From positions 12,651,934 through 12,715,933 of the forward strand of contig OZ316899.1 in the NCBI GenBank assembly GCA_973895155.1: a stretch of 64,000 nucleotides of DNA, read 5' to 3'. The position numbers and the translations under genes were made by a program. The notes beneath the pieces were generated by a model that was given only the letters and a program-made list of their open reading frames with translations, was not told the origin of the DNA and did no database searches. Each line of letters opens with the position of its first letter. Positions within the stretch are counted from its first letter, which is position 1. This document shows, one piece after another, positions 3,824 to 57,000 of this stretch. Source of the DNA: Marsupella aquatica. Its lineage: Eukaryota > Plantae > Marchantiophyta.

Positions 3824-3830
3824 TAGCAAA

Positions 3831-18286: not shown

Positions 18287-20620
<2,334 letters not shown>

Positions 20621-32750: not shown

Positions 32751-32764
32751 GCATTTTCTAAGCC

Positions 32765-35256: not shown

Positions 35257-35615
35257 TGTGACGCCGCCGGTACGGCGAGTAATGAGTAATTCAGTCTGGA
35301 CCGCGCTTAGCACGCACGTTAGGGGTATCTTAGGCCGCTATTATTAGCATAACGACAGTATTTAGGTAACCATTATGAGTAGGAAATCATTAGTTAATAA
35401 GGGGAAATCATGTTCTGACTGGCGGCGTGTTGCCATTCGCACGCCCGGGTTGCGAGCGTGGAGGGGCCCCTCCCTCGGGTCCGTATAACGAACTTAGGGA
35501 AGCGGCCACTGACACGCGCTGACTCAGACCGGCGGAGTGGCCGGTACACTACAAGCATGAACGGTTCAGCCTATAGGCAACGAGGAGACGTCGGGTGATC
35601 GACAAACCCTCAAGG

Positions 35616-35623
35616 TATAAAAA
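35616..35623 (+). promoter_or_regulatory. TATA box upstream of the LTR-B gene
   Basis: TATAAAAA followed by a CT-rich leader and ATG at 35724; conserved at 50393-50400. Confidence 0.55.
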
Positions 35624-35723
35624 GGGAGCCGACCCTTTGTAGTGCACCAGTCCATCAATCCACACGCCAGCTTCGACCCCAGCTCTCTCGTTCTCTCTTA
35701 GTTGCCACTGCTATCTCCTCTTA

Positions 35724-38347
35724 ATGTCGCACACGATCCTCTCCAGTTTGGCCATTCGATTCTGGACGGAGTTCCTATCTACCGGAAGACACTTGGCTGA
35801 CTCATTGAAACACGCCAACCCGCGCCAATACGAAATCGAACGCGAGTACGAGAGAGCCATCTGCCTAGCAGGACGACACCACTATATCCTTAACTTTGAC
35901 TACCCGTCTTAGAGCGAGCTTTACCGACCAGCAGAGGTATCTGGGTACTTCTTCAACGGAGACAAATATATCGGTTTCTAGGAAGCATTGCTTTGGCTTC
36001 CGGACGAGGTCTTCAATATCCTGGGTACGATCGACTTGCACCGACATCACTTCGACCACATCCCTGCTCAGGTTCGGGCTATCATCAACAACGAGTCCAA
36101 CGCTACCCGTTCGACAAGGCCGTCTGCACTTGCTTCGGAGAACTTCTACCAGCACCTGCAGAGCTTCATGGGAACTAGACCCTCAACCGCCGGCGTCGGC
36201 CCAGTCGACCCCATACCCATATCCGCACCAACGCAGACTCAGGCTCAGCTTCAGTCTCAGTCTCAGCCTAGCCAACCCCACCGCCGATCGCCCCGCCTGT
36301 ACAAGTACGCTCCGTCATCAACGCTATGGACCTTAGCGACGACGACGAGGCTACCCCACCCTTGCTCAGGCGGCCCAGAGGAGCAAACACTCAAGGGGCC
36401 AACACTACAGTGTCCCCTCTCCATGCTCGGACCCAAGGAGCGGCTCCAGCAGACAACACGGTGACCGTGGCCGCCCCGGGCCCAATACTAACGGCGGTAG
36501 CACTACCTATGCCCGATCGAGAGGATGGGGAGGTGTCACCCTCCCCGAGCCAGTCACGGGGGAAGAAGAGGAAGGAACCCGCCGCTGCATCCGGGTTACC
36601 ATTGGCCACGGTAGCCGCGGCCAAGGTGACAATGCACCGCATGGGGGAAAACGTGCATAAAAACATCCTCCATCCCAAACATGCGGTGTACCTGAAGACT
36701 CAGGGATTTGAGCACCTCGCCTCTCTCCCCTGGAACACTTGCAGGTACTACGGGGAGGACATGACGGAATTCGTCAAGAATTATGATGACGCACGTCAAC
36801 ATACTCGGCTGCGGGGAAGGAATATGTCCCTCACGGAAGAATGGCTCAAGATGATCTTCGGGTTACCCGAAGGTGACCACCGAGTCAAATCATGGGCTCC
36901 CGGGGGCAAGGGAGCCAAGTACCAATCCTCAAGTTTTCCCTCAGAGGGAGCAGTGGACAATGGGTTCGTGATGAGGACCTGCCTCATCCCCGAGATAGCT
37001 GAGTGACTGGAGTTCCAAAGGTATGCCCTCCACATGATGGAACCCCAGGGGGAGATCTCCGCTGCCCAGGTTATCCAGGTCGAGAACTATCGACCTAGGA
37101 AGTGCGCGTCGTACTTTGCTAAGAAATTCCATGAAGAGATGGAGCGGCGAAGAAAGACGCTATACATTGGCGGGAAGGCGTATTTCGCTAGCCACATCGA
37201 GATCATTCTCGAGTGGTACGTTCGGTTTGATCGACGAACCCTTCCCTATGTCAACGTTACAAAGCTGGTCCCAGCTAGGTGGGTTTTCCCGGCCTTGGAG
37301 AGACGGCCCCAACCCGAGGCCCGAAGTCCAGTGGACACGCAGGCTTCACCCACCCCACCTCCACAAGTAGCTATAGTCGTGACCGAGGAGGTACCGGATG
37401 GGTCGGTAATTGCAACCGTAGATGCGATCCAACAGGCCAGGCCAAGTACAGAAGTTGGTACAACGGAGGCCTTACTCGAGCCCGGGTCTCCCAAAGACCC
37501 ACCGGTGGCTATTCCGGAGAACCGGACATTGCTGCAGGAGGACACTCCAACCCCTTCCAACACTACGTCCCCAGGGCTGGATGTCACTGCCCCGGCCCCC
37601 GCGTGTGTTGACGTTTGCCCGTGCCCAACTCTGGACAGGCACAACCTGGACCACCCGGAACTCTTCGTACCGGGTACATTTCTGAACGGCCTTCTGGGAG
37701 ATTTCTCTCATCAAATTGCCCGGGATACCGGGGAGTTCATGGCCCGGAAGGTAGCCTGTTTCTTCAATCAGGAGTTGGTTGTCGTAGTAAACGCAGGCCG
37801 GGCCCAGTCAGAGGCCCTTCAGAGGATAGAGTGGTACCGGGTGGAGTCCGTATACTTAAAGAACAAAGTTGCGGCTCAAGAGGCTGAGCTTCTACAACTA
37901 CGACCCAAAGTTGCAGCCGCCGATGAGTTGTTAGCAAAGGCGCACGCCCTTACCGCCCTAGCCAAACAGGCCAAAGCTGGGAACGAGGCCGAGATTGCAC
38001 GACTCCGGAACCAGATTGACAGTTTGAAGAATCAAACTGTCATCTGGCAGAAAGACCTGGAGGATGCCGAAGAACGGGCCCAGCGGGACACTACGGAGAT
38101 AGCCACGCTACAGGCCAAAGTGGCGCGGCTCCAAACCGAAGCCGAGAAGCAGGACCAGCTGGCGGGCAAGCTGACGAGCGACGCCCAGCAGCTGGAGGAG
38201 GCAGTGGAGGAGACGGACGCGGCAAAGCGAGAGAACGAATCTCTGCTGGACCAAGTCCAGCTCCTCAAGGCGGACAACGACAGACTTCATAAGCAACGGG
38301 ATGGCCGCTCCCACTCGGGCGGCTCTGGCAAGCGTGCCAGGCATTAG
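35724..38347 (+). pseudogene. LTR-B-embedded gene (~875 aa), 5' LTR copy
   Basis: Frames 35724-35912, 35988-, 36326-37006 and 37034-38347 join across point stops and one frameshift, none of which are in the 3' copy. Confidence 0.85.
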
Positions 38348-39259
38348 CGACAGAGTAGGAATAGAATAGGGTTAGGAATAGCTAAATCAGGCTATGGGGA
38401 CAAGAACCTGCCCTAGTTAGAGTAGCACCGCCATGCTGTCCAGTCTGCGTAGGTTAGGATCTTCTAATAAGACACAGCCGTTTTTTGGCCTGACAGTCAG
38501 ATTAGTTAGGACCTAAGTCAGTGAATCTTTGGGCGGGAGGACACTCCGTTCCTTGGCCCTTAGTATTTAGTGCACCCCTCGGTAGAGGCAGGGTTGGGTT
38601 TTTTTAGTCTCAGTATTGGACATCCGCGGTATGTGCGGGGAGTCCCGACCTCTGGGAGTGGAAGAGTACCAAGGGGAGGGTGTAAGACTAAGCTTATTGG
38701 GCGAGTACGGAGCCGGGTTCCATTGTAGTGTACACCCTCGACCTCGGACCTGTTCACTCCAGAGCATTCGGGTCAACTAAGTGTACGCATATGTCTCTTA
38801 TGGAGTAAAATCCCTTCCCGTTATTTCCTTCGTATAAATTGAGATTTTATGCTTGTGCGTATGTATGTGTGTGAATCTCGTGTATAGGTGCCAACGCTTG
38901 GCCGAACGCACTACCCAAGTAGTGCACGAGGTGCAGCTTGCGTGTACGTGGTTGCGAGCCCGGGTTGAGCACCCATTCCACCAAAATCCGGATCGAAGGC
39001 GGACAATATGAAGGCTTAGAAGCCCTTAAGCCAGGGTCGATCTTGCTATCGATTGAGGTACGTTCCGGCGGCGGAACACAAATCATACCTAAGAGGTGTC
39101 CGTATATGATGATAGGCGCACTTAGCGCTATTTTATGTAAGTTGGGTGCATTCCGTGCCTCCCTCCCTGCCCGAACCCTCATTTTGACAAAGGTTGTGCC
39201 TATTTAAGCCAAAGCCCGGAGTAAGGCCAAGGCTGACGACGTGACATAGGCTTTGTTTT

Positions 39260-39277
39260 TGGCGCTAGATGGAGGGG
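39260..39277 (+). other. primer-binding site of element B (identical to A)
   Basis: TGGCGCTAGATGGAGGGG, 13 nt after the LTR end. Confidence 0.8.
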
Positions 39278-39492
39278 GCACTCTACGTGTAGTAGAGGGG
39301 AGACATGTGCGGGTGCACCTGGGCAGAATACACCAGGCCCGTGTGAGTTACTAACCATCGCGTGTATATGAGTAAATGTCCGTCACTCGTTCTCAAGCAG
39401 CCTACTTGAGGAGATTGACTAGCGAATGAGAGAGTGCAACCACAGCAAGCTCCGACTCTTTAGGATCGGAGGATTCGCAATCACCTCGGCAA

Positions 39493-42400
39493 ATGAACAT
39501 ACCACCAGGACCCTCGGGGTCCGGTCCAACCGGTCCTGCTCCAGTTCCTGCTGCACCACCGCCACTAGTACCTATGGCAGCCACCCCGCCGATGGCCCGC
39601 GTTGCCCAAGCTCCTCCACAAACATCGCAACGGTCGCGGTTTCATTATCGACCTTTCAAAGGGCATCATGGGGATGATCCGGATGAATGGTTGGATGAGT
39701 TTGAAGCCACTGCTAAGGCTAACGGGGAAGACGCCATTAAGCTAACTGTCCTCCCTGGAGTGATGCGGGGAGAAGCTCGTCCATGGTACAACTCACTGCC
39801 ACCCGGTACTACATGGGCACAATTCCAAGTTGCGTTGCTGCAAGAATTTTGTGCTATTGGATCCGAGCAACGCTCTTTATTAAAGATCGGCCAGCTTCGC
39901 ATGGGAAAAAAAGAGTCCCTGCAAAAGTTCATTCAAAAGTTTCAGAAACTTGCTGCCAAGATACGGCCTAGGCCTGGTGACGCACTCCAGCTTACGTGGT
40001 TCCTCCATGGTTTGCCCACGAATATGCAATTCTGGGTGCGCCAGAATAACCCAATTTCAATGCAAGCAGCCATAGCGTGCGCCGAAACCTACCGGGAGTC
40101 CACCTATAATTCTTGGCGAAGCCAGCGGGCACACCGCAAGAAGGGCAAGTACGAGACCTTCAGTGACAGTTACTCTGAATCAGACGACGAGAAGAAGAAG
40201 AAGCGCAAGAAGAAGAAGAAATGCAAGAAGAAGAAGAAACATCGTTCGACCTCGTCCAGTTCGGAGACAGAATCTAGTTCAGATTCAACTTCAAACAGCG
40301 TGTCCTCCACCACCAACTCATCGGGAAGTGATTCAGAGAGCAAGAGCCAGAGCAAGAAGAAGAAAAGGAGGGTTAAGAAGGAGGGGAAAATCAAACCCCG
40401 TGCTTGAAGAACGATACCCGATCCAAGGCTGCCGAAGCAGACAAGCTTAACAAAATCACGGATCGCCTCAAAGCACTGTCAGTACATCTCGCGGAAAAGC
40501 CGGTGGAGAAGAAGAAGCCATCTGAGATCCGAGCCCATGCGTGGTGTTCAAAGTGCTTCCAATCCGAGCATGTCGTGCAAGAATGCCCAAGATGGAAGAA
40601 CCGAGTTCACCAGGTGGAATTAGATGATGTCGACAACCCGGGACCTGAAGCGGAGTCCACGGAGTATTTCTTTGAAGACCCTCCTGATTCGGTGTATCAG
40701 ATTTCAATGGTGGGTCCGCGTAACTTAGCAGGTAGCACTGCATACCCCTACCCAAACAATAGCCGAAGTTTCCAAGTTATCAGTAATCCTAGCATTACCC
40801 CTAAACCAGGGATTTGGCGATCCTCGGTTTGTTACAACTGTGAGAAGCCAGGCCACTTTGCGAGGGAATGCACAGAACCAAGACGCAGGGGGATGGCCGT
40901 GGCATGCCACTATGTCAAGTCTGCAAAATGGAAGCTCATTCCATGGCCAATTGTCCATTGGTAATAGCCGCTCGAACAAATGGAGCAAGACCAGCTCAGG
41001 GCGGACCGGCCACGAGCGATGCAATCGTCCAAATGACTGTTGTGGAATGGCAAGATGACAACACCGAGTGGGTGAATCTGGTGGATGTGGCGGAGCACCC
41101 TAATCCATCTGACGAGGCTGAGTGCTACCGAGTGTCAACAAGAGCCGAACGGAAGGAAGAGAAGCAGGAGGAGAAACGCAGGAAAAAGCAAGATACTACT
41201 CCGGTGCAGCCAGCGATAGACATACCCCCAGAGAAAGATGATGACTACCGTAGGGACGACCCGAAGCTATTTTTCCCCCGCATCAAAGAAATGGTAAAGA
41301 AACAGCTGGAGGCCTATGAAGCTCGAGAATACCAGAAGGCAATCGATAAGGACATCAAAGCAGCTGAAGCCGCCTGACGACAGGAGCAAGAAAAGCAGGA
41401 GGAAGGCAAGCAGCAGCCGAAGGAAGAAAAGAAGGAGGACTATGATATTAAGGAAGACGTGAAGAGTTGCCCGGTTACAGCAACAGTAGGACAACTGCTA
41501 CAAAACAATCCACAGTACCGACGGCAACTGAGGGAGTTGCTTATGGGTCGATGACGGAGGCGACTACCCCGTGTTGGGATCGCGGATTGCAACATGATAT
41601 GCGAGGACCTGGGAGCGCCCGACATCTTGATTGAAATAAATAATTGTACCATCAAGATGGTTCTCGTGGACGGAGGAGCAGGCGTCAACATCATGACTGA
41701 AGAAACATCAGTCAAGTTATGATACCTCACGTATCAACCCACGGCCCGAGCTATCAGATTAGCAAATAGGGCAAGGGTCCTCCCATTAGGCACGCTCACA
41801 CGGGTGCTCACTCTGGTGGGAGGGGTGGAGTTCTATCTCAACTTCCTAGTCATGAGGAAGGTTCGGCCCTCCTCTTATCCGGTCCTCCTAGGCAGGCCGT
41901 GGCCATACGGTGGCCGTGTAGTCACGGATTGGGGAAAGAAGGAGCTACGGTTCGGGACACCCACAGTACGGGTATCATGGGCAATGGACGATTACCAGGG
42001 CAAAACTCCACAGGGACCCGAGGAATATGATTCGGAGACCTCGGAGGAAGAGGAACTCAATATGATTGAACTCATCTCGTCCCTGTCCGAGGAAGATGTC
42101 TTTGGAGTTGAGGCAACCCGGGAAACACATCTCCTGAATTACCCGAAGGCTGCTATTGAGTCCACCCCGAGCACCTCCACCGCCCGGGATGAGGAAACGC
42201 AAAAACAACTGATCAATACGGAGGACACAGCTCCAGCTAAGCAGGGCGCCGATGTTGCTTCTACCAGTGCAGAGCCTCGTGACCACGAACCGGCCAAACA
42301 ACCGCCCGATGCCAAAAACCTGAGACCAAGACATAAGAAACGAGTTTCCTGAGATCCGTCCATCCCACAATTGGAGGAAGTGACTCCAATCCCGAAACCA

Positions 42401-45280
42401 ATCCCGGTTCCACCCATGTACGGAGGAGTTCGGTTAGCTGAACTCGATGCGAGCCTGGACCCAAGCTTGCGGAACCAGGTTGAAGTCATCAGGAAGGAGC
42501 ACTACCGGAAGTACACCATTGGGATGGATAAGTCTTTTAACCTGGGCCACGCTCTGACTGGGGAGGCAGAAAAATCTATCCAAGCTTTGCTCAAGGAATA
42601 TGAAGATGTGTTTGCATGGAGCCATCATGATTTAACCGGAGTCTCCCCCGAGTTAGGAGAACACACGATCGATTTGAATTTGGGGGCCCATGCAGTACGG
42701 CAGCGACAACGTTGCATGAACCCGAGGTACTCCATCTTAGTGAAGGAGGAAATTGATCGTCTCCTCGCTGCAGATATCATCTCCCCAGTAATGGCCAGCG
42801 ACTGGGTCTCTCCCATCGTCATTGTACCAAAAAAGGGAGGTACGGACGGAAAACCTAAGATCCGGATCTGTCACGACTATCGTAAGCTAAATGACGCGAC
42901 CAGAAAAGACCATTACCCGTTACCATTCACGGATATGGTTCTAGATATGGTAGCCCGAAATGAAATTTATACATTCCTTGATGGGAATGGGTTATAACCA
43001 AATCTGGATTTGCCTCTCGGATCAGCTCAAAACAACGTTCACTACAGAATGGGGGACTTTCGCATTTCGGAGAATGCCGTTCGGACTGTGTAACGCTCTG
43101 GCCATGTTTCAGCAACTCATGATGAATATCTTCCACGATTTCCTACGGGAATTTCTGGAGATATTTATCGACGACTTTGCCATCTTTGGAACCGTCGCCA
43201 TGCACCCCAAACACCTAAGACGTACGTTGCAACGATGCCGAGAGGTTAACCTCAAACTACATCCCGCCAAATGCTTTTTCGGGGTAGAGGAGGGGGTGTT
43301 ACTCGGGCATCGTGTGTCCAAACGGGGTATCGAGGTGGACCAAGAGAAGGTCGCGGCCTGGATGGCGGTGGTGTTCCCCGTGGATCAAAAAGCGGTACGA
43401 TCCTTCTTGGGTTGTGTCGGGTATTACTGTCGGTTCATTAAAGACTTTGCTAAAATTGCGTTGCCCTTAACTGAGATGATGAAGAAGGACGCGGTGATCG
43501 AGGAGACACCCCGAAGACGGATTGCTTTCAAAGAACTCCGTAAACGACTCACCACCGCACCTATCATGATCACTCCAGACTGGAATAAGGAGTTCCACGT
43601 GTATGTCGATGTGTCAGGGTTCTGTATTGGATCCGTGCTCAGTCAGTTTGATGAGGACGGATGCGACCACCCCATCTACTTCGCTAGCCGTCAATTATTC
43701 ACAGCCAAAAAGAATTATTCCCCCACTGATCGAGAAGCTCTGGGAATAATCTACTCGTGTAAAAAGTTCCGACACTATCTGCTTGACTACAAGGTCATAT
43801 TCCACACGGATCATGATAGCCTGAAGTACATGGTCAACAAAGTGGACGTGACGGGACGGATAGCCCGGTGGGTGCTACTTCTCCAGGAATTTAACTACGA
43901 AGTTCGGGTTTGGCCAGGAAAGGTACACGTCAACGCCGATTTCTTTTCAAGGCTGGACGACGTACCAGTCGATCAGCCAATTAATGATATTTTTCCGGAT
44001 GAGGAATTGTTCCACGTAGGGGCGGGGACGCCAACGTGGTACGGTTCAATAATCACCTTCCTCTTAACAGGCCGCATCCCTGACGGCATCAATCAGGAAG
44101 CCGCCGCTGTGTTTTTAAGGAAAGCCGGGCCTTATGTCATGATACAGGGCCACCTACATAAGGAAGGAGTTAATGGGAAATTATGACGCTGCTTAGAGTA
44201 TAAGGAAACACTTATCGTGATGCGGGCCTTGCATGAAGAAGAAGCTAGAGACCATTTCGCGGCTATCATGACAACCCAAAAGATTCTGGACTCGGGGTAT
44301 TGGTGGCCTACGTTGCATCGGGATGTACAATGCTTCATCAAAGGTTGTGACCTGTGTCAACGGGCTGGGGCCCCGAGACAAGCTCATCATCACCCTCTCA
44401 CGTCCGTGCTTCCCTTAGCACCTTTCGAAAAGTGGGGTATTGATTACATCGGGCCGTTCACTCCCGTTACCTGAAGGCAAAGATGCAAGTACATCCTGCT
44501 AGCTATAGATTACTCCACCAAGTGGGTCAAAGCGCGGGCTACGGTGAAGGACGACGCTGCAACCAGCGCCAGGCTCTTATATGAACAGATTTTCACCCGG
44601 TTTGGACCGCCCTTAGAGTTGGTAAGCGACCGTGGAACACACTTCCTCAATGACACTGTAGCCCAGCTTACGGAGCGTTACCTAGTCAAGCACCGCAAGA
44701 CTACCCCGTATCATCCTAAAGCCAACGGGATGGCAGAGAGAGCCAATGGTATCATTGGGAAGATCCTCAACAAAACTGTAGCTGCGCACAAAACGGATTG
44801 GGATGATAAGTTGTACGCAGCGGTGTACTCGTATAATCTAGCTTACAAAACTACTACGAGTCATAGCTCGTACTTTCTCGTGTTCGACCAACATTCGTTG
44901 GTGCCCGTCGAGTTTGATGTACACACTCCACGGGTCAGCATTCGGGATCGCTTGCCCGAACCTGAAAGTTTGTCAGACCGAGCTTATCAGATTGAAGCCT
45001 TAGAAGAGGCACGGCTACTAGCATCTCGACACGCCGTACATCAGCAAGCAACTTCTACGAAGCGCACGACAAAGGACTACGGAAGGTCGATGTCGTGACA
45101 GGCGATCTGGTCCTTCTGTACGATAGTAGGTACATGCAGTTTCCAGGGAAGCTTCATACCCGTTGGTTAGGGCCCTTCCTAGTCAATCAGATCTACCCCA
45201 ACGGATCTTTGGAGCTTGCGACGTACGCCGGCGATTTACTCCCCACGCGAGTCAATTACGATCGTGTAAAGAAGTACCAC
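39493..45280 (+). pseudogene. element B gag-pol (gag, 3 CCHC knuckles, PR, RT, RNaseH, integrase); multiple lesions
   Basis: DDPDEWL, VDGGAGVNIM, DYRKLN, MPFGLCNA, FIDDF, NYSPTDRE, YWWPTL, WGIDYIGP, SDRGTHF, WLGPF. Confidence 0.95.
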
Positions 45281-48200
45281 TGTGGTGCGTCCCATGGCTC
45301 CCTAAACCCAAGAAACCCCCCAGCTCAAGCCGATTCCCGCAGGTTTCGCGCTTGGCGAGGCCGTTTCCGCGGCTTAGCGGCATGGGACGCTGCTAACCTT
45401 CTTCTACTACTACTATTAACATTTACACACATATACTGGACAAATCCTTCATCGGGTCATGAGATACGTAGCCGGCCTAATCTAGGCCTTCCCTTGTCTT
45501 CCCCTCCGTCTTGTTAGGTATGTTTGGATTCCGCCGCCGGAATGATCCCCAATAGGCTTGGTTAAGCCGCTAAGACCTCTCTCAGCTCGACACATCCAAC
45601 TCTCACTCCCCTGCTTACTTTCCTTCCTCTATTAGTTGATGTGGGCACTCTTCACACAAGTTAATGCGACACACAAATAGCAAAATGACTCCTTCTGACT
45701 AAGTCATACCATGCACTTGCCATACAAATAGTACATCTCATACACAAGCTCTGCGAACTAAGCCGTGAGGCCAACTCTATTCAGCTCTTAGGCATGAGGA
45801 AACATGAATATACATAAGGGTCACTGTATGACTAACCGAGAGCTTCTCTTACTACTTGATCCCAGCCCGGCTGGTGCAAACTAAAAACTTGCTAAAGAAG
45901 AGGCCCTGGACTCCCCGCTGCCCAGGTATTTATCCTGGCAGTTAATCTGTCCAGAACTTCGCTGCGTAAGCTTAATCTATCCTACCTGTAATCTACCTAA
46001 CTGTACAGTGAGGCAGGAGCACAAGTGTTGCTCCTGCCAGTGGAACCGCAATCCCACTAAGCTAAGTGTCAGGGCCGCCTCCTGGTCCTGATCCTAATCC
46101 TAAACTTGGAGATCAGCGCCCGCCCTGCCCACTCACGCCTCCTACCTCCACGTCCGCCCTTCCTAAAAGGAACGGCGCCCTTGCACCGTCACGACACCGG
46201 TGGTGGATCCTCAATGGATGCCCCCAACGCTTCCTCCTCAGCCACTGTCGTAGGTTCGTTCTCTGACAGATTACCTGCCCTTGACTGAGTCAACTCTCCA
46301 TTGGCCTGACTGGGTCTACCATCGGCATCGGCGTCGGCTCGGGAATCATTCTCGGCTACGGCCTCAGCCTCGGCTATGGTCTCCCCGGCCTGCTCAAGAG
46401 GCGGATCTGGGATACCGGCCTCATTATTGAGTAGTTCGGCTTGGGCCGCGCCATCCTCACCTTTGGTGATAGCGGGATCTATTGCCGTGTTCATGCCGGA
46501 GGTTGGTGCTGGGTCTACCTCCTTGGTCACCACGGCCAGTGGAGTCGTATTACTCCTTGACCCTGAAGGTTTCCGCTTCTTCTTCTTTTCTGGTTTGGCA
46601 GCTGGTCCCTTCCCCTTCCCACTTACTTCCGGCACTGGTGCAGGTGGCGCGGCTTGTTCTTCGGCCAGTACCACTCCTGGTAACTTGGTTGCCCCAATTG
46701 GAGTTGGGCCTGATGAAGACAAGCACTTAAATACTACGGCTTGTTTCTTTAGCCGCTCTGTTTGGTTGTCGGCCCGCCGCTGTAGGTTCTCCATCTTCCT
46801 CGTGATTTCCTCCAACTCCTCCTGGGTCTCATCCAGGTCCTTGCGCGCCTCTTCTAGCTCATTTTTGGCTTCCTCCAATTCCCTGTGGGCTTCCTCCAAT
46901 TCCTTCTTGGTGGTAGCCCTCTCCTCCCGGGTTGCTCTTAGCTCCTTGTCGAGCTCTGCAATGATGACAGACTCCATCTGGTTCATCTTGGCGTAAGTCT
47001 GATCGAGCATCTCGTCCTTCTCCCGTAGGTCGGCCTTGAAGCTGGCCGTCAGGGACGCAAGCTCCTGCTACAGCGCCATAATCCCTTGATAGGATTTCCC
47101 TAACTCGGCCTCCTTCTGCTCAAGGACTCCGCGGATTTTCTCGAGCTCCCCCTTCAACGCCCATTCCTTTCTTTGGGTCTCCGCCATGGCCCGGTTGTTG
47201 GATGTTATGTGGGCCTCCTCTGCATTCCTCAGCTCCTTCTTCCATTTCTCCCTGTCCTTGATTGCGTCGGCCAATTCTCCTTGGGTCCGCGTCAGTAGAT
47301 TCTCGATCATCCGATTATCAGATTGTGCGGTATCCAACTGGCCCTGCATGATATTTAGCTCATGCCGCTTAATCCGCAGCTCATCTTGGGCTTTCTTGGC
47401 CACCCTCAGGTCCTTGATTTTGGCTTCCCTTTCCCTAAGCCGACGGATGACCTCGTCCTTCTTGCTTCTTTCCAAGGTCACCGCTTCTTCTAATTGGCGC
47501 TTCTCCAACATCTCCCTCTGGAAAAAGGGTCCCTGCTCCAACTCCTCCCCAAATATGTTGAGCGCCAGTTCTCCACACATCTCCCCGTACTCCATGGCTC
47601 TGTCTTTAGCATAGGTGGAGGAAGTAGAAGTCATCGGCATCATCCACCGCGGCCTCTGCTCCCAAGCCGTCTTGCAGATCTCTTCAATCGTGGCTAGAGG
47701 TTTGCTTCCTTTTTTGGCTAGCCGCTTGATGTCCTCCGGCCAATCTCCTCCTGGCAAATCCTTTTCTCTAGCCAGGGCTGCCTCCTCTTCCTGCCTGATT
47801 TGCTCCTGAAATTCCTGCGCCGTCTGTTTTATGCCGTCAAAGCTCGGGGGAGCAATATCTGGTGGGGGAGACTCAGGGCTACTCTGTTGGTTGGGGTCCC
47901 CTCGTACTACCCTTGGAAGTGTGGGGATAAACCGGCCACAGGTCCTTACTCCTGGAACGTGATGGTCCGACCCATAGCCGGAGTTATCATGGCTGCAGTC
48001 CTCCACTGCCTCCTCTACTTCTTGGACTTCCGGCTTCTCCCTCTCCTCTTTGTCCGTAGGAGCTTCAGGCAATTCTGCCTCAGATTCAGAGCTTGAGACT
48101 CCTACGTACATTCGAACACCCGGCTTGGATTCTGGCCTGATTCTCTCCTTGTCTCCAGTAAAGGGGTTTTCCCTTGTAAGCCGGTGTAGGCCTACCTCTG

Positions 48201-49965
48201 GAGCAGTGTCCTGCATTGTTGCCGTTGCCGTTGTCGTTGCCGATGCCGATCTCTTTTCTTTCTCCAGTAGTTTCAGCAGATTCTGCATGCCTGGTTGCTG
48301 CATCGGCAAGTCCTCCGTCCTTGGCCTAAACACCTGCTCGATCGTAGGGCTAACAGGTGGTTGAGGCTTCTCTGCTACCGGCCTCGGTGCTGGAACTTCC
48401 TCGGGTGCCCTTACCTGCAGGGGAAGTACTGGGGCAAAGATCTGACCTCTGGCATACTGGCACAACAGCGGCATGTGATAGCCAAGCCGCGACACGCTCC
48501 CCATGCCGATTACCTGCTGCTCCTCCTTTAAGATCTTCTTCAATTGGTTGAGGAGGTACCCGTTGTAGTCCCGGCTTGAGTCTGGCCTCTCTGCCAAATA
48601 GACCTGTGCCTTGCCGATCTCTGCCCTCGGCAAGTTACAGTGCATGGTCACCCGCAAGAAGTCGATCATCTCTCCTATGTGTGGGTTGGTGCAGGTGTTC
48701 CGGAAGAAGCCATTCTTTGTTGATGGCCCGGGGAACGACCGGAACTCCTTGTCAGGCAAGGTCTTCCTGGTATCAACTTTGGTCTTATTGCCTATCGGCA
48801 AGCCAAACACTTCGGCAATCACCTTGGGAGTAAGATAGAAATCCTTCCCATATATCCTCGTGCAATTGGTCTCGGGTTCCCATGACCCCACGAATTCTAA
48901 TAGGTCTGAATCCGGCACCTCCGGCTTCAGCCATGGTAATCTTACAAAGGCCTCTAAGCCGGATCTGGCCATGAAGCCTTGGTACTTCTTGGTCTGCATG
49001 GCCGTAAAGCATGCATCCTCCTCCCGTGCAAAATGTAATTGCACCTCCACCGGTAGGGTTGCCGCCCAGCCTTTCCAGGTATCATCCCTGGTTGGAATGG
49101 CATTGATGGGATCGACCTCCTCCTCTTCGGCTTCTCCCTGCCTCCTGCTCTGTTGCTCGGCTGGCTTCCTTGGTGCCGCCGACCTCGTTCTTTTTGCCGG
49201 GGTGGCTTCATCATTGACGGCTCCCTTCCTCTTCATCTGTGCTGCCGTGGAGGTTTCTCCTAGCACCGTTGCCGGGGTCCACCTTTCCGTGCTACCCTTC
49301 AATTCCCAGTGTATGTCGTTGCAGTTCTTGATGGCCTCTCGAATGCCGATGATTCTGTCTTCACAAAACATAAGATCGTCGAGCTGATTGGAAGTAGGAG
49401 TCCACAAGAACTCGGCGTTGATGAGTTTGCCTCCTAAGAAAGCCGTCTTCTGCAGCTCCCACAATCGAGCGAGCTCTTGCCATTCTCGAGCTGCCCTTTC
49501 TGATTCCTCGTCCTCGTAAGTCTTGATGTACTCAGTTGCCCGTTCGAACAGGCATCCCCAGAAATGTGCCGCTTGATTGACGTTGCTCATACCCTCCTTA
49601 GATCGATCGTCGGTATCTACTCTCTCCCCGAGTGCTTGCCTAAGTAGCTGACAGTAGTTGGCCTCCTGTAGTCGTCTGCCTAGTTCGTGCTCACAAATGA
49701 GCCACCATTCCCTGCAAGCGCTCCTTACCCCTCTCCTCTTCCGGTCCTTCCTCCCGTTGATCCTTCCTAGCCGCCGACGCTTAACGCGCCCTAACCCTAA
49801 TAGAGTTTCACCCCCAGCGTCCTTACCTCCGGCCTCGGCCCGGGTTCCATGGTCGCCCCTAATTGTTTATATTTTCCTTGTTTTGTCCCTATACTAAGGT
49901 GTTTCTAGGGTGCATTCCTGCTTTACCCACTTAACTGGCCGAGTGATTCCTGGCTAGGCATCACA
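45281..49965 (-). mobile_element. solo LTR A' (4,685 bp, diverged A-family subfamily) inserted antisense at the end of the B integrase
   Basis: Reverse complement of LTR-A end to end; TSD ACCAC (45276-45280 and 49966-49970); no PBS or internal domain. Confidence 0.95.
46189..49590 (-). pseudogene. LTR-A-embedded gene, nearly intact solo-LTR copy (1,133 codons, single TAG at 47068-47070)
   Basis: The 840-aa and 273-aa ORFs are in the same frame; the other LTR-A copies have CAG at the stop position. Confidence 0.9.
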
Positions 49966-50020
49966 ACCACCATCAAGACGACAACGCCAAAAGTGATGTT
50001 TGCGAGGATGCTTCACAGTT

Positions 50021-50033
50021 AAGCTGGGAGCTA
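50021..50033 (+). other. atypical PPT of element B
   Basis: AAGCTGGGAGCTA before the LTR TG; matches the equivalent tract of A. Confidence 0.6.
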
Positions 50034-53000
50034 TGTGACATCGCCGGTACAGCGAGTAATGAGTAATTCAGTCTAGACCGCGCTTAGCACGCGCGTTAGG
50101 GGTATCTTAGGCCGCTATTATTAGCATAACGACAGTATTTAGGTAACCATTATGAGTAGGAAATCATTAGTTAATAAGGGGAATTCATGTTCGGACTGGC
50201 GGCGTGTTGCCATTTGCACGCCCGGGTTGCGAGCGTGGAGGGGCCCCTCCCTCGGGTCCGTATAATGAACTTAGGGAAGCGGCCACTGACACGCGCTGAC
50301 TCAGACCGGCGGAGTGGCCGGTACACTACAAGCGTGAACGGTTCAGCCTATAGGCAACGAGGAGATGTCGGGTGATCGACAAGCCCTCAAGGTATAAAAA
50401 GGGAGCCAACCTTTGTAGTGCACCAGTCCATCAATCCACACGCCAGCTTCGACCCCAGCTCTCTCGTTCTCTCTTAGTCGCCACTGCTATCACCTCTTAA
50501 TGTCGCACACGATCCTCTCCAGTTCGGCCATTTGATTCTGGACGCAGTTCCTATCTACCGGAAGACACTTGGCCGACTCATTGAAACACGTCAACCCGCG
50601 CCGATACAAAATCGAACGCGAGTACGAGAGAGCCATCTACCTAGCAGGATGACACCACTATATCCTTAACTTTGACTACCCGTCTCAGAGCGAGCTTTAC
50701 CGACCAGCAGAGGTATCTGGGTACTTCTTCAACGGAGACAAATATATCGGTTTCTGGGAAGCATTGCTTCGGCTTCCGGACGAGGTCTTCAATATCCCGG
50801 GTACGATCGACTTGCAAGGACATCACTTCGACCACATCCCTGCTCAGGTTTGGGCTATCATCAACAGCGAATCTAGCACTACCCGTTTGACAAGGCCGTC
50901 TGCACTTGCTTCGGAGAACTTCTACCAGCACCTGCAGAGCTTCATGGGAACTAGACCCTCAACCGCCGGCGCCGGCCCAGTCGACCCCATACCCGTACCC
51001 GCACCAACGCAGACTCAGGCTCAGCTTCAGTCTCAGTCTCAGCCTCAGCCTAGCCAACCCCCACCGCTGATCGCCCCGCCAGTACAAGTACGCTCTGTCA
51101 TCAATGCTGTGGACCTTAGCGATGACGACGAGGCTACCCCACCCTTGCTCAGGCGGCCCAAAGGAGTAAACACTCAGGGGGCCGACACTACATCGTCCCC
51201 TCTCCATGCTCGGACCCAAGGAGCGGCTCCAGCAGACAACACGGTGACCGTGGCCGCCCCGGGCCCAATACTAACGGCGGTAGCACTACCTATGCCCGAT
51301 CGAGAGGATGGGGAGGTGTCACCCTCCCCGAGCTAGTCACGGGGGAAGAAGAGGAAGGAACCCGCCGCTGCATCCGGGTTACCATTGGGCACGGTAGCCG
51401 CGGCCAAGGTGACAATGCACCGCATGGGGGAAAACGTGCATAAAAACATCCTCCATCCCAAACATGCGGTGTACCTGAAGACTCAGGGATTTGAGCACCT
51501 CGCCTCTTTCCCGTGGAACACTTGCAGGTACTACGGGGAGGACATGATGGAATTTGTCAAGAATTATGATGATGCACGTCAACATACTCGGCTGCGGGGA
51601 AGGAATATGTCCCTCACGGAAGAATGGCTCAAGATGATCTTCGGGTTACCCGAAGGTGACCACCGAGTCAAATCATGGGCTCCCGGGGGCAAGGGAGCCA
51701 AGTACCAATCCTCGAGTTTTCCCTCAGAGGGAGCAGTGGACAACGGGTTTGTGATGAGGACCTGCCTCATCCCCGAGATAGCTGAGCGACTGGAGTTCCA
51801 AAGGTACGCCCTCCACATGATGGAACCCCGGGGGGAGATCTCCGCTGCCCAGGTTATCCAGGTCGAGAACTATCGACCTAGGAAGTGGGCGTCATACTTT
51901 GCTAAGAAATTCCATGAAGAGATGGAGCGGCAAAGAAAGACGCTATACATTGGCGGGAAGGCATATTTTGCTAGCCACATTGAGATCATTCTCAAGTGGT
52001 ACGCTCGGTTTGATCAACGAACCCTTCCCCGTGTCAACGTTACAAAGCTGGTCCCAGCTAGGTGGGTTTTCCTGGCCTTGGAGAGACGGCCCCAACCTGA
52101 GGCCCGAAGTCCAGTGGACACGCAGGCTTCACCCACCCCACCTCCACAAGTAGCTATAGTCGTGACCGAGGAGGTACCGGATGGGTTGGTAATCGCAACC
52201 GTAGATGCGATCCAACAGGCCGGGCCAAGTACAGAAGTCGGTACAACAGAGGCCTTACTCGAGCCCGGGTCTCCCAAAGACCCATCGGTGGCTATTCCGG
52301 AGAACCGGACTCTGCTGCAGGAGGACACTCCAACCCCTTCCAACACTACGTCCCCAGGGCTGGATGTCACTGCCCCGGCCCCCGCGCGTGTTGACGTCTG
52401 CCCGTGCCCAACTCTGGACAGGCACAACCTGGACCACCCGGAACTCTTCATACCGGGTACATTTCTGAACGGGCTTCTGGGAGATTTATATCATCAAATT
52501 GCCCGGGATACCGGGGAGTTCATGGCCCGGAAGGTAGCCTATTTCTTCAATCAGGAGTTGGTTGCCATAGTAAAGGCAGGTCGGGCCCAATCAGAGGATA
52601 GAGCGGTACCGAGTGGAGTCCGTATACTTAAAGAACAAAGTTGCGGCTCAAGAGGCTGAGCTTTTGCAACTATGAACCAAAGTTGCAGCCACCGATGAGT
52701 TGTTAGCAAAGGCGCACGCCCTTACCGCCCTAGCCGAATAGGCCAAAGCTGGGAACGAGGCCGAGATTGCACGACTCCGGAACCAGATTGACAGTTTGAA
52801 GAATCAAACTGTCATCTGGCAGAAAGACCTGGAGGAGGCCGAAGAACGGGCCCAGCGGGACACTACGGAGATAGCCACGCTACAGGCCAAAGTGGCGCGG
52901 CTCCAAACTGAAGCTGAGAAGCAGGACCAGCTGGCGGGCAAGCTAACGAGCGACGCCCAGCAGCTGGAGGAGGCATGCCAGGAGGCAACGGAGGAGACGG

Positions 53001-54028
53001 ATGCGGCAAAGTGAGAGAACGAATCTCTGTTGGACCAGGTCCAGCTCCTCAAGGCGGACAACGACAGACTTTGTAAGCAACGGGATGGCCGCTCCCACTC
53101 GGGCGGCTCTGGCAAGCGTGCCAGGCATTAGTGGCGGAGTAGGAATAGAATAGGGTTAGGAATAGCTAAATCAGGCTATGGGGACAAGAACCTGCCCTAG
53201 TTAGAGCAGCACCCCCATGCTGTCCAGTCTGCGTAGGTTAGGATCTTCTAATAAGACACAGTCATTTTTTGGCCTGACAGTCAGATTAGTTAGGACCTAA
53301 GTCAGCGAATCTTCGGGCGGGAGGACACTCCGTTCCTCGGCCCTTAGTATTTAGTGCACCCCTCGGTAGAGGCAGGGGGGTTTTTTTAGTCTCAGTATTG
53401 GACATCCGCGGTATGTGCGGGGAGTCCCGACCTCTGGGAGTGGAAGAGTACCAAGGGGAGGGTGTAAGACTAAGCTTGTTGGGCGAGTGCGGAGCCGGGC
53501 TCCGTTGTAGTGTACACCCTCGGCCTTGGACCTGTTCACTCGAGAGCATTCGGGTCAACTAAGTGTACACATATGTCTCTTATGGAGTAAAATCCCTTCC
53601 CGTTATTTCCTTCGTATAAATTGAGATTTTATGCTTGTGCGTATGTATGTGTGTGAATCTCGTGTATAGGTGCCAACGCTTGGCCAAACGCACTACCCAA
53701 GTAGTGCACGGGGTGCAGCTTGCGTGTACGTGGTTGCAAGCCCGGGTTGAGCACCCATACCACCAAAATCCGGATTGAAGGCGGACAATATGAAGGCTTA
53801 GAAGCCCTTAAGCCAGGGTTGATCCTGCTATCGATTGAGGTACGTTCCGGCAGCGGAACACAAATCATACCTAGGAGGTGTCCGTATATGACGATAGGTG
53901 CACTTAGCGCTATTTTATGTAAGTTGGGTGCATTTCGTGCCTCCCTCCCTGCCCAAACCCTCATTTTGACAAAGGATGTGCCTATTTAAGCCAAAGCCCG
54001 GAGTAAGGCCAAGGCTGACGACGTGACA
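50034..54028 (+). repeat. 3' LTR of element B (3,995 bp)
   Basis: colinear with 35257-39246. Confidence 0.95.
50500..53131 (+). pseudogene. LTR-B-embedded gene, 3' LTR copy
   Basis: Same protein as 35724-38347, with different private lesions. Confidence 0.85.
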
Positions 54029-54033
54029 GGAGG

Positions 54034-57000
54034 AATCTTCTTTAGCATTAACTATGTAGTAATGAAGCCGGTAAACCCTACGTCGTTCCGACTATTAATT
54101 GGCAGGCCATGGCTGTACCTAGCCAAAGTAATAGAGGATTGGGGTAAGAAGGAGTTCACCTTTGGGGCCCCATCTATCACGGTATCCTGGGACACCAAGG
54201 ATGACCGCAAGAAAAACATCAGGGAGATAGATGGGTACGACAGTGGACTGGAATCCGCCGATGAAGTACGTTGGCTAGAATGCCTCACTGACCTAACCGA
54301 AGAAAGTGTGTTTGGACCGGAAGTGCCCCCCAGCGGACTATGGCACGAACCTATGGAGAGTAACTTGGAGGAAGGTGAAGAAGAGACCGAGGATTGCTTT
54401 GCCATAGAGTCAACATTTTTAGCTTCAATTCCGGAGGAGACATAAGAGGCAGATCGGCTAGATGAAACGGCTAGGTGGGGAGCTACACCAGAGACAGTGG
54501 ATTTTCCTCGAGCGTTGTGGCAGAGCCGACAGGATCCACAACGCCGTCTATCATCGGCAACAAATTAAATACCAAGGGATCGACTTACAAGCCAATCACA
54601 AGGGCAGAAAAAATTGAGGCCCTGCTAGAAGCCGGAAGAGCACGACGGCCTGACCCTCAAGAAGTAGGAATAGATAAGATGCACGGGAAGAAACCAGAGC
54701 CGAGTCAGGAAGGGGAGCCGACAACCAATTCAAAACCAAGCATAACGGTAAGGGAACAGTCTGTTAATAACCAGGGAGAACCTAAGTCAACCAACTCGGC
54801 TAGTACTGCCGAGATTCCAATCTATGGAGGTATGAGACTGGAGACGCTGGAGCCGAGTTGGACCCAAATTTGAAGAAGCAGATTAATATGATCCAAGCAC
54901 GGCAATACCGGAAGCTAGACTTAGGAGAAGGAAGGGAACTGAACTTGGGGCGGGACCTAGCACCTGAGCTTGAGAAAGAGATCAGTGAATTACTAATTGA
55001 ATTTCAGGATGTGTTCGCATGGAGTCACCAAGATCTGAAGGGAGTAGACCCAAAACTAGGAGAACACCGAATTGATCTCATGTTAGCGGCCAAATCATTT
55101 CGACAACCGATTCGAAGGATGAACCCTAAGTATTCTCTGATGGTCAAGGCTGAAATCGATAAACTAGTGGAAGCCGGATTCATCACTCCAGTCCTGCATT
55201 CTGATTGGGTGTCTCCAATTGTGATAGTTCCCAAGAAAGCTGGACCCGATGGTAAACCAAAGATCCGGGTTTGTCAGGATTACAGGAAGTTGAATGAGGC
55301 TACGTTAAAAGACCATTTTCCCTTACCCTTTACTGATATGGTACTAGACATGGTAGCCAGTCATGAACTATACTCATTCATGGATGGATACTCTGGTTAT
55401 AACCAAATCAGGATTAGGCAGGAGGACCAAATCAAGACAGCCTTCATCACGGAATGGGGGATCTATGTCTTCAATCGTATGCCGTTTGGACTCTGTAACG
55501 CACCAGCTATGTTCCAACGATTGATGGTGAACATTTTTCATGACTACTTGAGAAAATTCATGGAAATCTTCATTGATGACTTTGAAGTATTTGGGAAGGC
55601 ATCAAAACATGCTAAATACCTCAGGAAAACCTTCATGAGATGCAGAGAGGTAGGCCTCAAGTTACACCCAGATAAATGTTTCTTTGGCGTAACAGAGGGT
55701 GTGCTACTAGGTCACAAGGTATCAAAAAAGGGCATTGAGATTGATAAGGGTAAACTAGCAATGTGGCTAGATATCATGCAACCTAAGAACATAAAGGATG
55801 TGAGATCCTTCTTGGGTTGCATTGGTTATTATCGCCGGTTCATCAAGGATTTTGCCAAGCTAGCTTTACCATTAACCAACATGCTCAAGGCAGGTGCAGA
55901 CTTCGAACCCACACCAGAACGAGTAACAACAGTAGTAGAATTGAAGCAAATGTTAGTAGAGGCCCCAGTCATGATAGCACCAGACTGGAACAAGGATTTT
56001 CATGTCTTTGTAGATGTCTCAGGCTTCTGTATCGGCTCAGTACTAAGTCAGTTAGATGAGAAAGGAAGGAACCATCCTATATACTTTGCAAGCCGCCAGC
56101 TTGCCGATGCCGAACAAAACTACTCCACCACAGAAAGAGAAGCATTAGGAGTCATTTATTCCTGTAAAAAGTTTAGGCATTATCTGCTAGGGTACAAGGT
56201 AATCTTTCATACTGATCATGAAAGTTTAAAGTACCTAGTAAATAAGCCGGACCTTACAGGCAGGGTAGCAAGATGGATTTTGCTATTACAAGAGTTTGAC
56301 TACGAGCTAAAAATCAAGCCGGGAAAGTTACACGCCAATGCCGACTTCTTTTCAAGGATCATAGATGAACCTGCCATGGATTGCATCGATGATCGATTTC
56401 CCGACGAGGAGCTATTTGTTGTGGAAATAGCTGATACATGGTACCCTGAGATTTTACAATTTCTCAGCACTTCCAGATTACAGCCCGGACTAAGACGAGA
56501 GCAAGCCGCAGTCTTTTTGCGGAAGGTCAGACAGTATGAGTGCATCAAGGGCGTGCTACACAGGCATGGAATCAGCGGCACGATTCAAAGGTGTTTGGAG
56601 GAGGGAGAGGTAAAACGAGTCTTACGAGCTATGCATGGGGAGGAGGCCGGGGGACATTTCGCTCCAGTAACCACTTCTAAAAAGATATTAAATGCCGGTT
56701 ACTGGTGGCCCACCTTGCACAAAGATGTCTATAAGTTTATCAAACAATGCGATCCTTGTCAACGAGTAGGAGGACCAAGGGCATCCACAAGACATCCACT
56801 GCACCCTATTCTACCTCTGGCACCATTTGAGAAGTGGGGTATTGATTACATCGGACCCCTGAAACCATTGACCCATCCTCGAAGAAACAAGTACATAATC
56901 TTGGCCACAGATTATGCAACTAAGTGGGTAGAGGCCAGGCCGACAACGAAGGATGATGCAATTACTACGGCTCGATTCATGTATGAGCAGATCTTCACCA

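What the first reader, a model, noticed from the sequence alone, without database searches (positions are those of the whole stretch)
45281..49965. Solo LTR that keeps a near-intact 1,133-codon gene showing signs of purifying selection
Seen: this TSD-flanked solo LTR has only one CAG>TAG stop in the ORF. Against LTR-A, a 20-codon sample (YEDEESERA.RE.QELARLW) shows 5 synonymous and 2 non-synonymous changes. The indels I checked keep frame, including one extra 21-nt heptad (EEAHREL) in the coiled coil. Inference: LTR-LTR recombination, which normally deletes all retroelement coding capacity, cannot remove this gene. Solo LTRs could therefore supply the protein in trans or seed domesticated genes.
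Basis: partly seen in the sequence, partly recalled or inferred. Interest (0 to 1): 0.72.

Follow-up and report, generated by a model that had tools for sequence, protein, structure and literature searches.

The report
VANC-fold gene inside retrotransposon LTRs
A jumping gene, likely from a liverwort, carries inside its terminal repeats a conserved gene whose predicted fold resembles a known plant anti-silencing protein, so a leftover single repeat keeps the gene, but this leftover copy is broken and shows no sign of selection of its own.

Summary
In detail: 45281-49965 is a TSD-flanked solo LTR with a 1,133-codon ORF and one premature stop. The reading needs correcting. Purifying selection (dN/dS 0.24-0.27 against element A) belongs to the replicating family. 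The solo copy's private changes (14 non-synonymous, 7 synonymous, 1 nonsense; small sample) fit neutral decay, the stop is private, and one stop is what its youth predicts. Supply in trans or domestication is unsupported for this copy and untested genome-wide.

The gene itself is the stronger finding. It lies wholly inside the LTR in both window families (A, B) and, at the same position, in two metagenome relatives. All 8 named homologue clusters (of 20 looked up) are liverwort proteins. Its domain folds confidently (pLDDT 90), and its one clear PDB match is the anti-silencing factor VANC21 (Z 8.4, next 2.3). Family-specific CCG-containing motifs are enriched: WGCCG in A, ATCCGGA strongly in the relatives. 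It is likely a DNA-binding, self-protecting accessory factor moved into the LTR; function untested. This scan earlier noted LTR-embedded genes of unknown fold in two other genomes.

The parts
45281..49965 (-). Solo LTR of the A-type Ty3/gypsy family, 4,685 nt, TG...CA, inserted in the last codons of element B's integrase
45276..45280 (.). Target-site duplication ACCAC, left
49966..49970 (.). Target-site duplication ACCAC, right
46189..49590 (-). LTR-embedded ORF, 1,133 codons, LTR positions 376-3777, sense to gag-pol in full elements
48400..49080 (-). Conserved globular domain (codons 171-397), dN/dS 0.07, predicted VANC21-like fold
46756..47673 (-). Predicted coiled coil (about codons 640-945), with the extra 21-nt heptad
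   Evidence: 3.6-residue periodicity, 42% E/K/R/Q
47068..47070 (-). Premature stop at codon 841, private to this copy
   Evidence: about 99% of laid depth reads another letter in 4 of 4 runs
46567..46587 (-). Basic cluster KKKKRKP, possible nuclear localisation signal, downstream of the stop; a second basic stretch begins at codon 120
   Evidence: function inferred
49866..49871 (-). Only TATAAA in the LTR (position 95), upstream of the ORF; candidate promoter, untested
25032..62406 (+). Element A, full-length Ty3/gypsy, TSD GGAAT, host of the nest
25032..32728 (+). 5' LTR of A: same gene, 2 stops, a 751-nt duplication and a 2.2-kb insertion; PBS follows
57738..62406 (+). 3' LTR of A: same gene, 6 stops; PPT precedes
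35257..54028 (+). Element B, second Ty3/gypsy family nested in A, TSD GGAGG, pol 66% nt identical to A
35257..39246 (+). 5' LTR of B with a homologous broken ORF (domain 36623-37225)
50034..54028 (+). 3' LTR of B with a homologous broken ORF (ATG 50500; domain 51406-52020; 26% aa identity to the solo domain)

Best explanation
This is a young, ordinary solo LTR whose 1,133-codon gene was kept by selection in the replicating retrotransposon family and is now likely decaying neutrally in this copy; the gene is predicted to encode a VANC/plant-mobile-domain-fold protein that likely binds DNA and helps the element resist silencing. Shown: the nest (A holds B holds the solo LTR), the gene inside the LTR in families A and B, lineage-level purifying selection, and a private stop. 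Predicted: the fold. Inferred: the gene began as a sense extra ORF between pol and the 3' LTR, as in Athila, and entered the LTR when a polypurine tract upstream of it was adopted; it is transcribed from a promoter at the LTR start; the protein oligomerises through its coiled coil and binds a short CCG-containing motif enriched in its own family. Every LTR, solo or not, inherits the gene, and each copy loses it by mutation within a few percent of divergence. Odds by step: neutral decay of this copy 0.85, VANC/PMD-type fold 0.85, anti-silencing role 0.45.
For: dN/dS 0.24 at codons fixed in A, 0.07 in the domain; 182 of 365 changes synonymous against 35% expected, p about 1e-8. Private solo changes at 90% or more family share: 14 non-synonymous, 7 synonymous, 1 nonsense against neutral fractions 0.62/0.34/0.05 (p=1.0). 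LTR pairs of A (p=0.83) and B (36 of 91 synonymous, p=0.38) also decay neutrally. Nesting makes the solo copy younger than B (LTR distance 0.040). 65 homologues of the domain. Model pLDDT 90, pTM 0.86. VANC21-DNA crystal structure is the only Z>=5 match among 48,161 chains: Z 8.4, rmsd 4.2, 205 aligned, next Z 2.3; Foldseek gives it TM 0.45 against 0.21 or less for other listed rows. Atlas leads for both families point to Transposase_32, ATHILA, DUF1985 and PMD. No transmembrane segment. L001 and L002 show pol, PPT, LTR start, then a sense ORF 515-660 nt inside the LTR; the L002 ORF matches the domain profile (hhalign E=1.3e-4, 164 columns). ATCCGGA occurs 26 times in 1.4 kb of the L001 LTR (shuffle maximum mean 4.5, 0 of 50) and CCGGA is enriched in their pol beyond synonymous shuffles (z 8-10). 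WGCCG: 14 per kb in the solo ORF, 3 in B, 1.5 in the flank; thinned count 37 vs 18 +/- 3, 0 of 500.
Against: The private-change test is weak: only 44 ORF sites were listed (22 at 90% share or more), picked by the tool as best supported, and the ratio is not significantly different from the lineage ratio (Fisher p=0.18; p=0.053 at 95% share). The fold match is moderate: Z 8.4 is near the level the tool calls common, identity is 9%, and Foldseek E=1.5; a shared fold shows no function. No Pfam family reaches its cut-off, and the direct test against one Transposase_32 domain was not significant. No VANC-type motif array in the non-coding parts of the solo or B LTR, no significant motif in B, and WGCCG was chosen after looking. 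CG sites in WGCCG decayed as fast as others in element A after insertion (7 of 65 vs 23 of 210), so no protection of that copy is visible. The same fold serves silencing and anti-Polycomb roles in MAIN/MAIL proteins (passages). No expression data.
Confidence: 0.62

Rival explanations
1. One reading: solo LTRs are a working reservoir. They keep gene and promoter, are expressed, supply the protein in trans, and some become domesticated; this copy is one, perhaps as an 840-residue truncated protein.
For: The solo copy keeps the only TATAAA upstream of the ORF and the whole domain lies before the stop. It has fewer stops than either A LTR (1 vs 2 and 6). The private-change test cannot exclude moderate constraint. 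Gypsy-encoded PMD is a proposed source of the MAIN/MAIL genes (PMC5418596, passages).
Against: The stop is private, private changes fit neutrality and one stop is expected. The copy sits inside a nest of decaying elements and about 60% of its differences from the family are of the methylation-deamination type (50-56 of 85-94). Full-length elements already carry two copies each.
Confidence: 0.1
2. The protein is a DNA- or chromatin-binding accessory factor with another job: a transactivator of the element's promoter, a tether that guides integration, or a nuclear-import helper, not an anti-silencing factor.
For: Same fold, basic clusters and coiled coil fit these roles. Nuclear, regulatory roles are proposed for other plant extra ORFs (PMC7264820; PMC11963269). 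No motif-linked protection from CG decay.
Against: The only clear structural neighbour with a tested function on its own transposon is VANC21. Family-specific CG-containing motifs are spread through the relatives' LTR and pol, which fits protein-motif co-evolution better than one promoter site.
Confidence: 0.22
3. The gene is an env-like or virus-particle structural protein.
For: Sense extra ORFs of Athila are often called env-like; long coiled coil; Athila-domain and VANC pentamers were modelled (PMC13547354, passages).
Against: No transmembrane segment (maximum 19-residue hydropathy 0.9) and no hydrophobic N-terminus; the fold matches a DNA-binding protein; no viral fold match at E<=0.001.
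Confidence: 0.04
4. The solo LTR is an assembly collapse of a full-length element, or arose other than by LTR-LTR recombination.
For: No genome or long reads were available to check the junctions; no laid contig spans the stretch.
Against: Exact 5-bp TSD, clean termini, and B's integrase continues on both sides as in A. The neighbouring LTR pairs at 96% identity are resolved. The origin of the solo state does not change the conclusions on the gene.
Confidence: 0.02

Closest known systems
VANC21 anti-silencing factor of VANDAL21 (Mutator-like DNA transposon; PDB 9LNK/9LNJ; Hosaka 2017, PMC5735166)
   Same: Predicted fold of the domain (Z 8.4, rmsd 4.2, 205 of 227 aligned); transposon-encoded; coiled coil alongside; family-specific short motifs in the element.
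   Different: Here the carrier is an LTR retrotransposon, likely of liverworts, and the gene is inside the LTR. 9% identity, no DUF1985 Pfam hit. Motif dispersed and partly within coding sequence, not in non-coding tandem arrays, in family A. PMC13547354 calls VANC dicot-specific. No function tested.
Athila ORF-1 / Transposase_32, Ogre PMD and Retand TRP28 extra ORFs of OTA Ty3/gypsy elements (Neumann 2019; Vicient and Casacuberta 2020)
   Same: Extra gene of a non-chromovirus-like Ty3/gypsy element, conserved under selection; Atlas and weak Pfam leads (3 of 43 members, best E=0.006) point to this group of domains.
   Different: In the parts I read those ORFs lie in the internal region, 5' of gag or between pol and the 3' LTR, and are lost in solo LTRs. 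Here gag starts just after the PBS, pol runs into the LTR, and the gene is duplicated in both LTRs. Below all Pfam cut-offs.
MAIN/MAIL plant mobile domain proteins (Ikeda 2017; bioRxiv 2024.09.27.615353)
   Same: Reported structural kin of VANC; protein-DNA motif modules; proposed origin from Gypsy-encoded PMD.
   Different: Host genes of angiosperms; no PMD Pfam hit here; this copy shows no sign of domestication.
MMTV sag, a gene in the U3 of a retroviral LTR
   Same: A protein gene within the LTR, present twice per element.
   Different: Animal retrovirus, membrane superantigen of about a quarter the size; no homology implied.
Tat Z1/Z2 and Athila lineages without an additional RNase H (PMC10508981, PMC13468544)
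   Same: RT-RH-INT with no second RNase H seen; best named pol matches are liverwort proteins.
   Different: Lineage not placed on a tree; the parts I read do not mention LTR-embedded genes.

Membership tests
Solo LTR | TG...CA ends with one target-site duplication directly flanking | tested here: met
   ACCAC both sides
Solo LTR | Full-length homology to the LTRs of a complete element, with no PBS, PPT or internal sequence attached | tested here: met
   84-87% to both A LTRs; flanks are B integrase; family contigs continue into a PBS at this end (loose ends)
Ty3/gypsy retrotransposon (parent elements A, B) | gag, then RT-RNase H-integrase order, PBS and PPT, 5-bp TSD | tested here: met
   Pfam and junctions
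Tat clade with aRH (Ogre, Retand, TatI-III) | Additional RNase H domain | tested here: inconclusive
   None between RH and integrase in A's pol; protease-side and broken stretches were not all scanned
Athila vs Tat Z1/Z2 | Placement on an RT/INT tree with reference elements | not tested
   No reference set at hand
VANC anti-silencing factors | VANC21-type fold | tested here: met
   Z 8.4, rmsd 4.2, 205 aligned, next Z 2.3; moderate, from a predicted model
VANC anti-silencing factors | DUF1985 sequence domain | tested here: not met
   No Pfam family for the window domain at E<=10 or for the 932-aa frame at 0.01; Atlas lead only, 0.89
VANC anti-silencing factors | Encoded by a VANDAL Mutator-like DNA transposon | tested here: not met
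   Carrier is an LTR retrotransposon
VANC anti-silencing factors | Dense family-specific target motif in the element's non-coding tandem repeats | tested here: inconclusive
   None in solo or B non-coding parts; dispersed WGCCG in A; dense ATCCGGA in L001 and L002
VANC anti-silencing factors | Sequence-specific DNA binding and induced hypomethylation in trans | not testable with these tools
   Needs binding and methylome data; indirect CG-decay test showed no protection
Athila ORF-1 / Transposase_32 extra ORF | Pfam match at curated cut-off | tested here: not met
   0 of 65 homologues at E<=0.001; 3 of 43 weak, best 0.0058
Athila ORF-1 / Transposase_32 extra ORF | Position in the internal region between pol and the 3' LTR | tested here: not met
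   ORF is inside the LTR; pol ends at the LTR boundary
env-like proteins | Transmembrane helix or signal peptide | tested here: not met
   Maximum 19-residue Kyte-Doolittle mean 0.9
Domesticated transposon gene | Intact ORF | tested here: not met
   Private stop at codon 841
Domesticated transposon gene | Purifying selection on the copy after insertion | tested here: inconclusive
   7 synonymous to 14 non-synonymous fits neutrality, but power is low
Domesticated transposon gene | Expression and orthologous conservation | not testable with these tools
   No genome; no RNA holder listed

The most novel reading that the evidence does not exclude
A whole clade of early-land-plant Ty3/gypsy elements has turned its LTR into a self-contained anti-silencing cassette: promoter, VANC-fold gene and the motif the protein binds all sit in the repeat. 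The host's main way of deleting retrotransposons, solo-LTR formation, then leaves young cassettes that go on de-silencing their family in trans, and the VANC/PMD fold has a retrotransposon history reaching back to liverworts.
Probability: 0.17. Interest if true: 0.88.

Novelty: new variant of a known kind. Interest (0 to 1): 0.6.

Why it matters
The function of extra ORFs in plant LTR retrotransposons is an open question (PMC7264820). Here a structural match names a function to test, sequence-specific anti-silencing as in VANC, and the elements offer candidate target motifs that differ by family. The position inside the LTR doubles the gene in every element and lets it outlast solo-LTR formation, which I did not find described for plant elements in ten searches of the held library. 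It also extends the VANC/PMD-type fold to retrotransposons of a likely liverwort, which bears on whether PMD genes came from Gypsy elements (left open in PMC5418596). The single solo copy is not itself special.

Tried and rejected
No whole genome is held, so solo and full-length copies could not be counted. No RNA holder listed; this says nothing on expression. Word-index protein search with the domain found nothing; the last such search covered only 1,368-3,905-residue proteins and was uninformative. A fold from three sequences failed (pLDDT 32). PDB by sequence gave only coiled-coil noise; the viral fold library gave no match at E<=0.001; the second-look structural comparison did not complete. 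Direct profile tests against one Transposase_32 domain landed on the right stretch but were not significant (hhalign E=0.14; below shuffles). An 87-codon N-terminal extension was considered and rejected (dN/dS about 1; polymorphic indel). Exact motif arrays in non-coding LTR parts of solo and B: none. Protection of motif CGs from decay: none. Laid depth was not used as copy number. The default-filter profile scan missed the L002 ORF; it appeared only with filters off and by hhalign. The L001 ORF is cut by the contig end after about 70 codons and is assigned by likeness to L002, by eye. L003-L005 hold no 3' LTR and were uninformative. The VANC21 structure paper is not held and may discuss retrotransposon homologues; no supplements were read, and the eORF tables of Neumann 2019 could bear on novelty. 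Whether the ORF lies in U3 or in R/U5 could not be settled.
Full report
Structure. Self-comparison of the window shows three nested pieces. Element A (25032-62406, TSD GGAAT) has LTRs at 25032-32728 and 57738-62406. Element B (35257-54028, TSD GGAGG, 4.0-kb LTRs) is inserted in A. The finding, 45281-49965 on the minus strand, is inserted in the last codons of B's integrase. It has TG...CA ends, the TSD ACCAC, 84-87% identity to both A LTRs, and no PBS or PPT beside it. A and B are Ty3/gypsy elements (gag, RT, RNase H, integrase). The closest named pol matches by identity are Calypogeia fissa (63-64%) and Riccia sorocarpa (53-56%), so the host is likely a liverwort; this is an inference.

The ORF. 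It runs 49590-46189, 1,133 codons, LTR positions 376-3777, with one stop at codon 841. Over 1,094 ungapped codons NG86 dN/dS is 0.27 against either A LTR, 0.24 at codons where both A LTRs agree, 0.07 in codons 171-390 and 0.51 at the C-terminus. Indels keep frame in 4 of 4 cases inside the ORF and 1 of 9 outside. The gene is real.

Where the selection acted. Solo and A differ by 14.5% (K2P), the A LTR pair by 3.4% and the B pair by 4.0%. Because it sits inside B, the solo copy has had at most about 2% of its own decay; most of the 14.5% is divergence between replicating subfamilies. Changes private to each A LTR are mostly C-to-T or G-to-A in CG and CHG context. With that spectrum the neutral split is 0.62 non-synonymous, 0.34 synonymous, 0.05 nonsense, equal to an NG86 ratio near 0.53. 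The A pair (0.57; p=0.83) and the B pair (36 of 91 synonymous; p=0.38) fit it; solo versus A does not (p about 1e-8). Contigs of four public runs laid on the stretch (5,182-23,632 records each) show a multi-copy family whose majority differs from this copy at 85-94 of 5,085 places, 50-56 of them deamination-type. At the stop about 99% of depth reads another letter in 4 of 4 runs. The two calls listed 51 places, 44 in the ORF (40 of 107 rows, 18 rows, overlapping). The 22 ORF places with 90% or more share in both X1 and X2 split 14 non-synonymous, 7 synonymous, 1 nonsense. That matches neutrality (p=1.0) but is not significantly different from the lineage ratio (Fisher p=0.18; 0.053 at 95% share), so the test leans one way without closing the question. 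For 45-70 private changes 2.1-3.3 stops are expected and P(at most 1) is 0.16-0.37. Near-intactness therefore needs no selection on this copy.

The gene is a lineage trait. Both B LTRs hold a homologous ORF, 26% identical in the domain, with the same order of domain, low-complexity linker and coiled coil. A profile of the three window domains found 65 proteins at E<=0.001 among 1.84 billion. Of 20 looked up, 8 clusters carry an organism name: 7 Calypogeia fissa and 1 Riccia sorocarpa. A metagenome scan with a pol relative (P0009, 56% to A's pol) gave 5 loci. The 2 that reach past pol, L001 and L002, both show pol, a purine tract, an LTR start and a sense ORF 515-660 nt further in. The L002 ORF matches the domain alignment (hhalign probability 53%, E=1.3e-4, 164 columns; 10.4 bits against a maximum of 7.7 in 1,000 shuffles). 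Neither contig spans a whole LTR, so that these ORFs end inside the LTR is inferred.

What the protein is. No Pfam family passes its cut-off. Atlas feature searches give leads of 0.87-0.89 to Transposase_32 and ATHILA for A and to DUF1985 and PMD for B. With 43 sequences the domain folds at pLDDT 90, pTM 0.86. Among 48,161 PDB representatives the only match at Z 5 or more is VANC21 bound to its target DNA: Z 8.4, rmsd 4.2, 205 aligned, 9% identity, next Z 2.3. Foldseek ranks the sister entry second at E=1.5, with TM 0.45 against 0.21 or less for the other listed rows. The Z is moderate, but the match covers the whole domain, stands far above the rest, and agrees with the Atlas leads. VANC21 binds a short motif dense in its own transposon and causes local loss of methylation (PMC5735166, passages). 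VANC and MAIN/MAIL domains are reported structural kin (PMC13547354 and bioRxiv 2024.09.27.615353, passages). The protein has no transmembrane segment and two basic clusters.

A prediction of the VANC-like model is a family-specific motif. In L001 and L002 it is strong: ATCCGGA 26 times in 1,394 nt of LTR (shuffle maximum mean 4.5; 0 of 50), and CCGGA 80-100 times in pol against 34-36 under synonymous shuffles. In family A it is moderate: CGGCA is the top 5-mer of the solo ORF (z 5.0, null maxima 2.4-3.5), and WGCCG runs at 14 per kb in the ORF, 7.7 in the LTR tail, 4.7-7.0 in A's internal region, 3 in B and 1.5 in the flank. Against this: no array in the non-coding LTR parts, nothing significant in B, the motif was picked after looking, and its CGs decayed at the ordinary rate in A after insertion (7 of 65 vs 23 of 210). 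Conservation of motif CGs between lineages is weakly higher (31 of 35 vs 90 of 132, p=0.02; the reverse test p=0.13).

How it likely works. Gag starts just after the PBS and pol runs through the PPT into the LTR, so the internal region has no room for an extra gene. The simplest history is that a sense 3' extra ORF of the Athila type entered U3 when an upstream purine tract was adopted (inferred). The only TATAAA of the A-type LTR is at position 95, upstream of the ORF; B has TATAA boxes at 228, 360 and 3582 with its ORF starting at 467. Each LTR may thus be a transcription unit for the gene, and a fresh solo LTR could express it until mutation or methylation stops it. That is possible by geometry and untested.

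Comparison with print. Vicient and Casacuberta 2020 (PMC7264820, parts 1-2 of 3 read) and Neumann 2019 (PMC6317226, passages) place plant extra ORFs in the internal region and report LTRs up to about 5 kb without naming genes in them in what I read. Biryukov and Ustyantsev 2023 (PMC10508981, parts 1-2 of 3) and PMC13468544 (passages) describe liverwort Tat Z1/Z2 without aRH, the likely lineage candidates with Athila. PMC11728184, PMC11963269, PMC5418596 and PMC12885004 were seen as passages; PMC10968565 gave nothing relevant. Ten searches turned up no report of an LTR-embedded gene in plant Ty3/gypsy elements or of a VANC-like fold in bryophyte retrotransposons; the library lacks most subscription papers, including the VANC21 structure paper. 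MMTV sag as a precedent is recalled. This scan's notes hold two LTR-embedded genes of unknown fold in other genomes and no look-alike of this protein.

Verdict. Observation confirmed; interpretation partly supported. The solo copy is an ordinary young relic. The family-level layout, an accessory gene with a predicted VANC/PMD-type fold inside the LTR, is a new variant of a known kind. It likely works like VANC but is not a member of that family. Interest 0.6.

Noticed in passing
L001:1-1394 and 3145-7311; L002:1913-6058, 6148-6662: Two related metagenome elements are saturated with ATCCGGA/CCGGA in LTR and coding regions, far beyond dinucleotide and synonymous shuffles; better candidates than this window for a protein-motif test.
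   Followed up: partly
window 57600-57750 and 49971-50060: In A and B the integrase frame runs through the polypurine tract and ends only inside the 3' LTR; there is no 3' untranslated internal region.
   Followed up: no
window 32729-32760 and 39247-39280: A and B share the same PBS core (TGGCGCTAGATGGAGGGGGCA) although pol is 66% identical; in B it lies about 12 nt from the LTR end, in A about 4 nt. L001 and L002 use a different PBS.
   Followed up: no
window 29383-31614: A 2.2-kb AT-richer, CG-poor insertion in the 5' LTR of A with no long ORF; not identified.
   Followed up: no
window 26613-28118: A tandem duplication of about 750 nt in the 5' LTR of A breaks the frame; the two units differ by about 6%, more than the two LTRs of A differ from each other (3.4%), which is unexplained.
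   Followed up: no
window 58223, 59966, 60355: All three deletions private to the 3' LTR of A (15, 27, 3 nt) keep frame although this copy has six stops; chance, repeat-guided deletion or gene conversion.
   Followed up: no
window 45973-46005; 32001-32042; 61679-61720: A 15-nt tandem unit in the LTR tail varies in copy number (2.1 in solo, 2.8 in A).
   Followed up: no
window 8555-9079: Exon with a glutathione S-transferase N-terminal domain (Pfam E=3e-15), probably a host gene.
   Followed up: no
window 13032-15122: Fragments of a CACTA-type DNA transposon (Transposase_21, DUF4218), minus strand.
   Followed up: no
window 24156-25100: A 314-codon Cys/His-rich minus-strand ORF with no Pfam hit directly beside A's insertion site; may be the interrupted target.
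   Followed up: no
P0172, P0176: Two homologues of the domain are joined to a weak DDE_Tnp_4 (Harbinger-type) fragment, one annotated in Riccia sorocarpa; gene-model fusion or capture by a DNA transposon.
   Followed up: no
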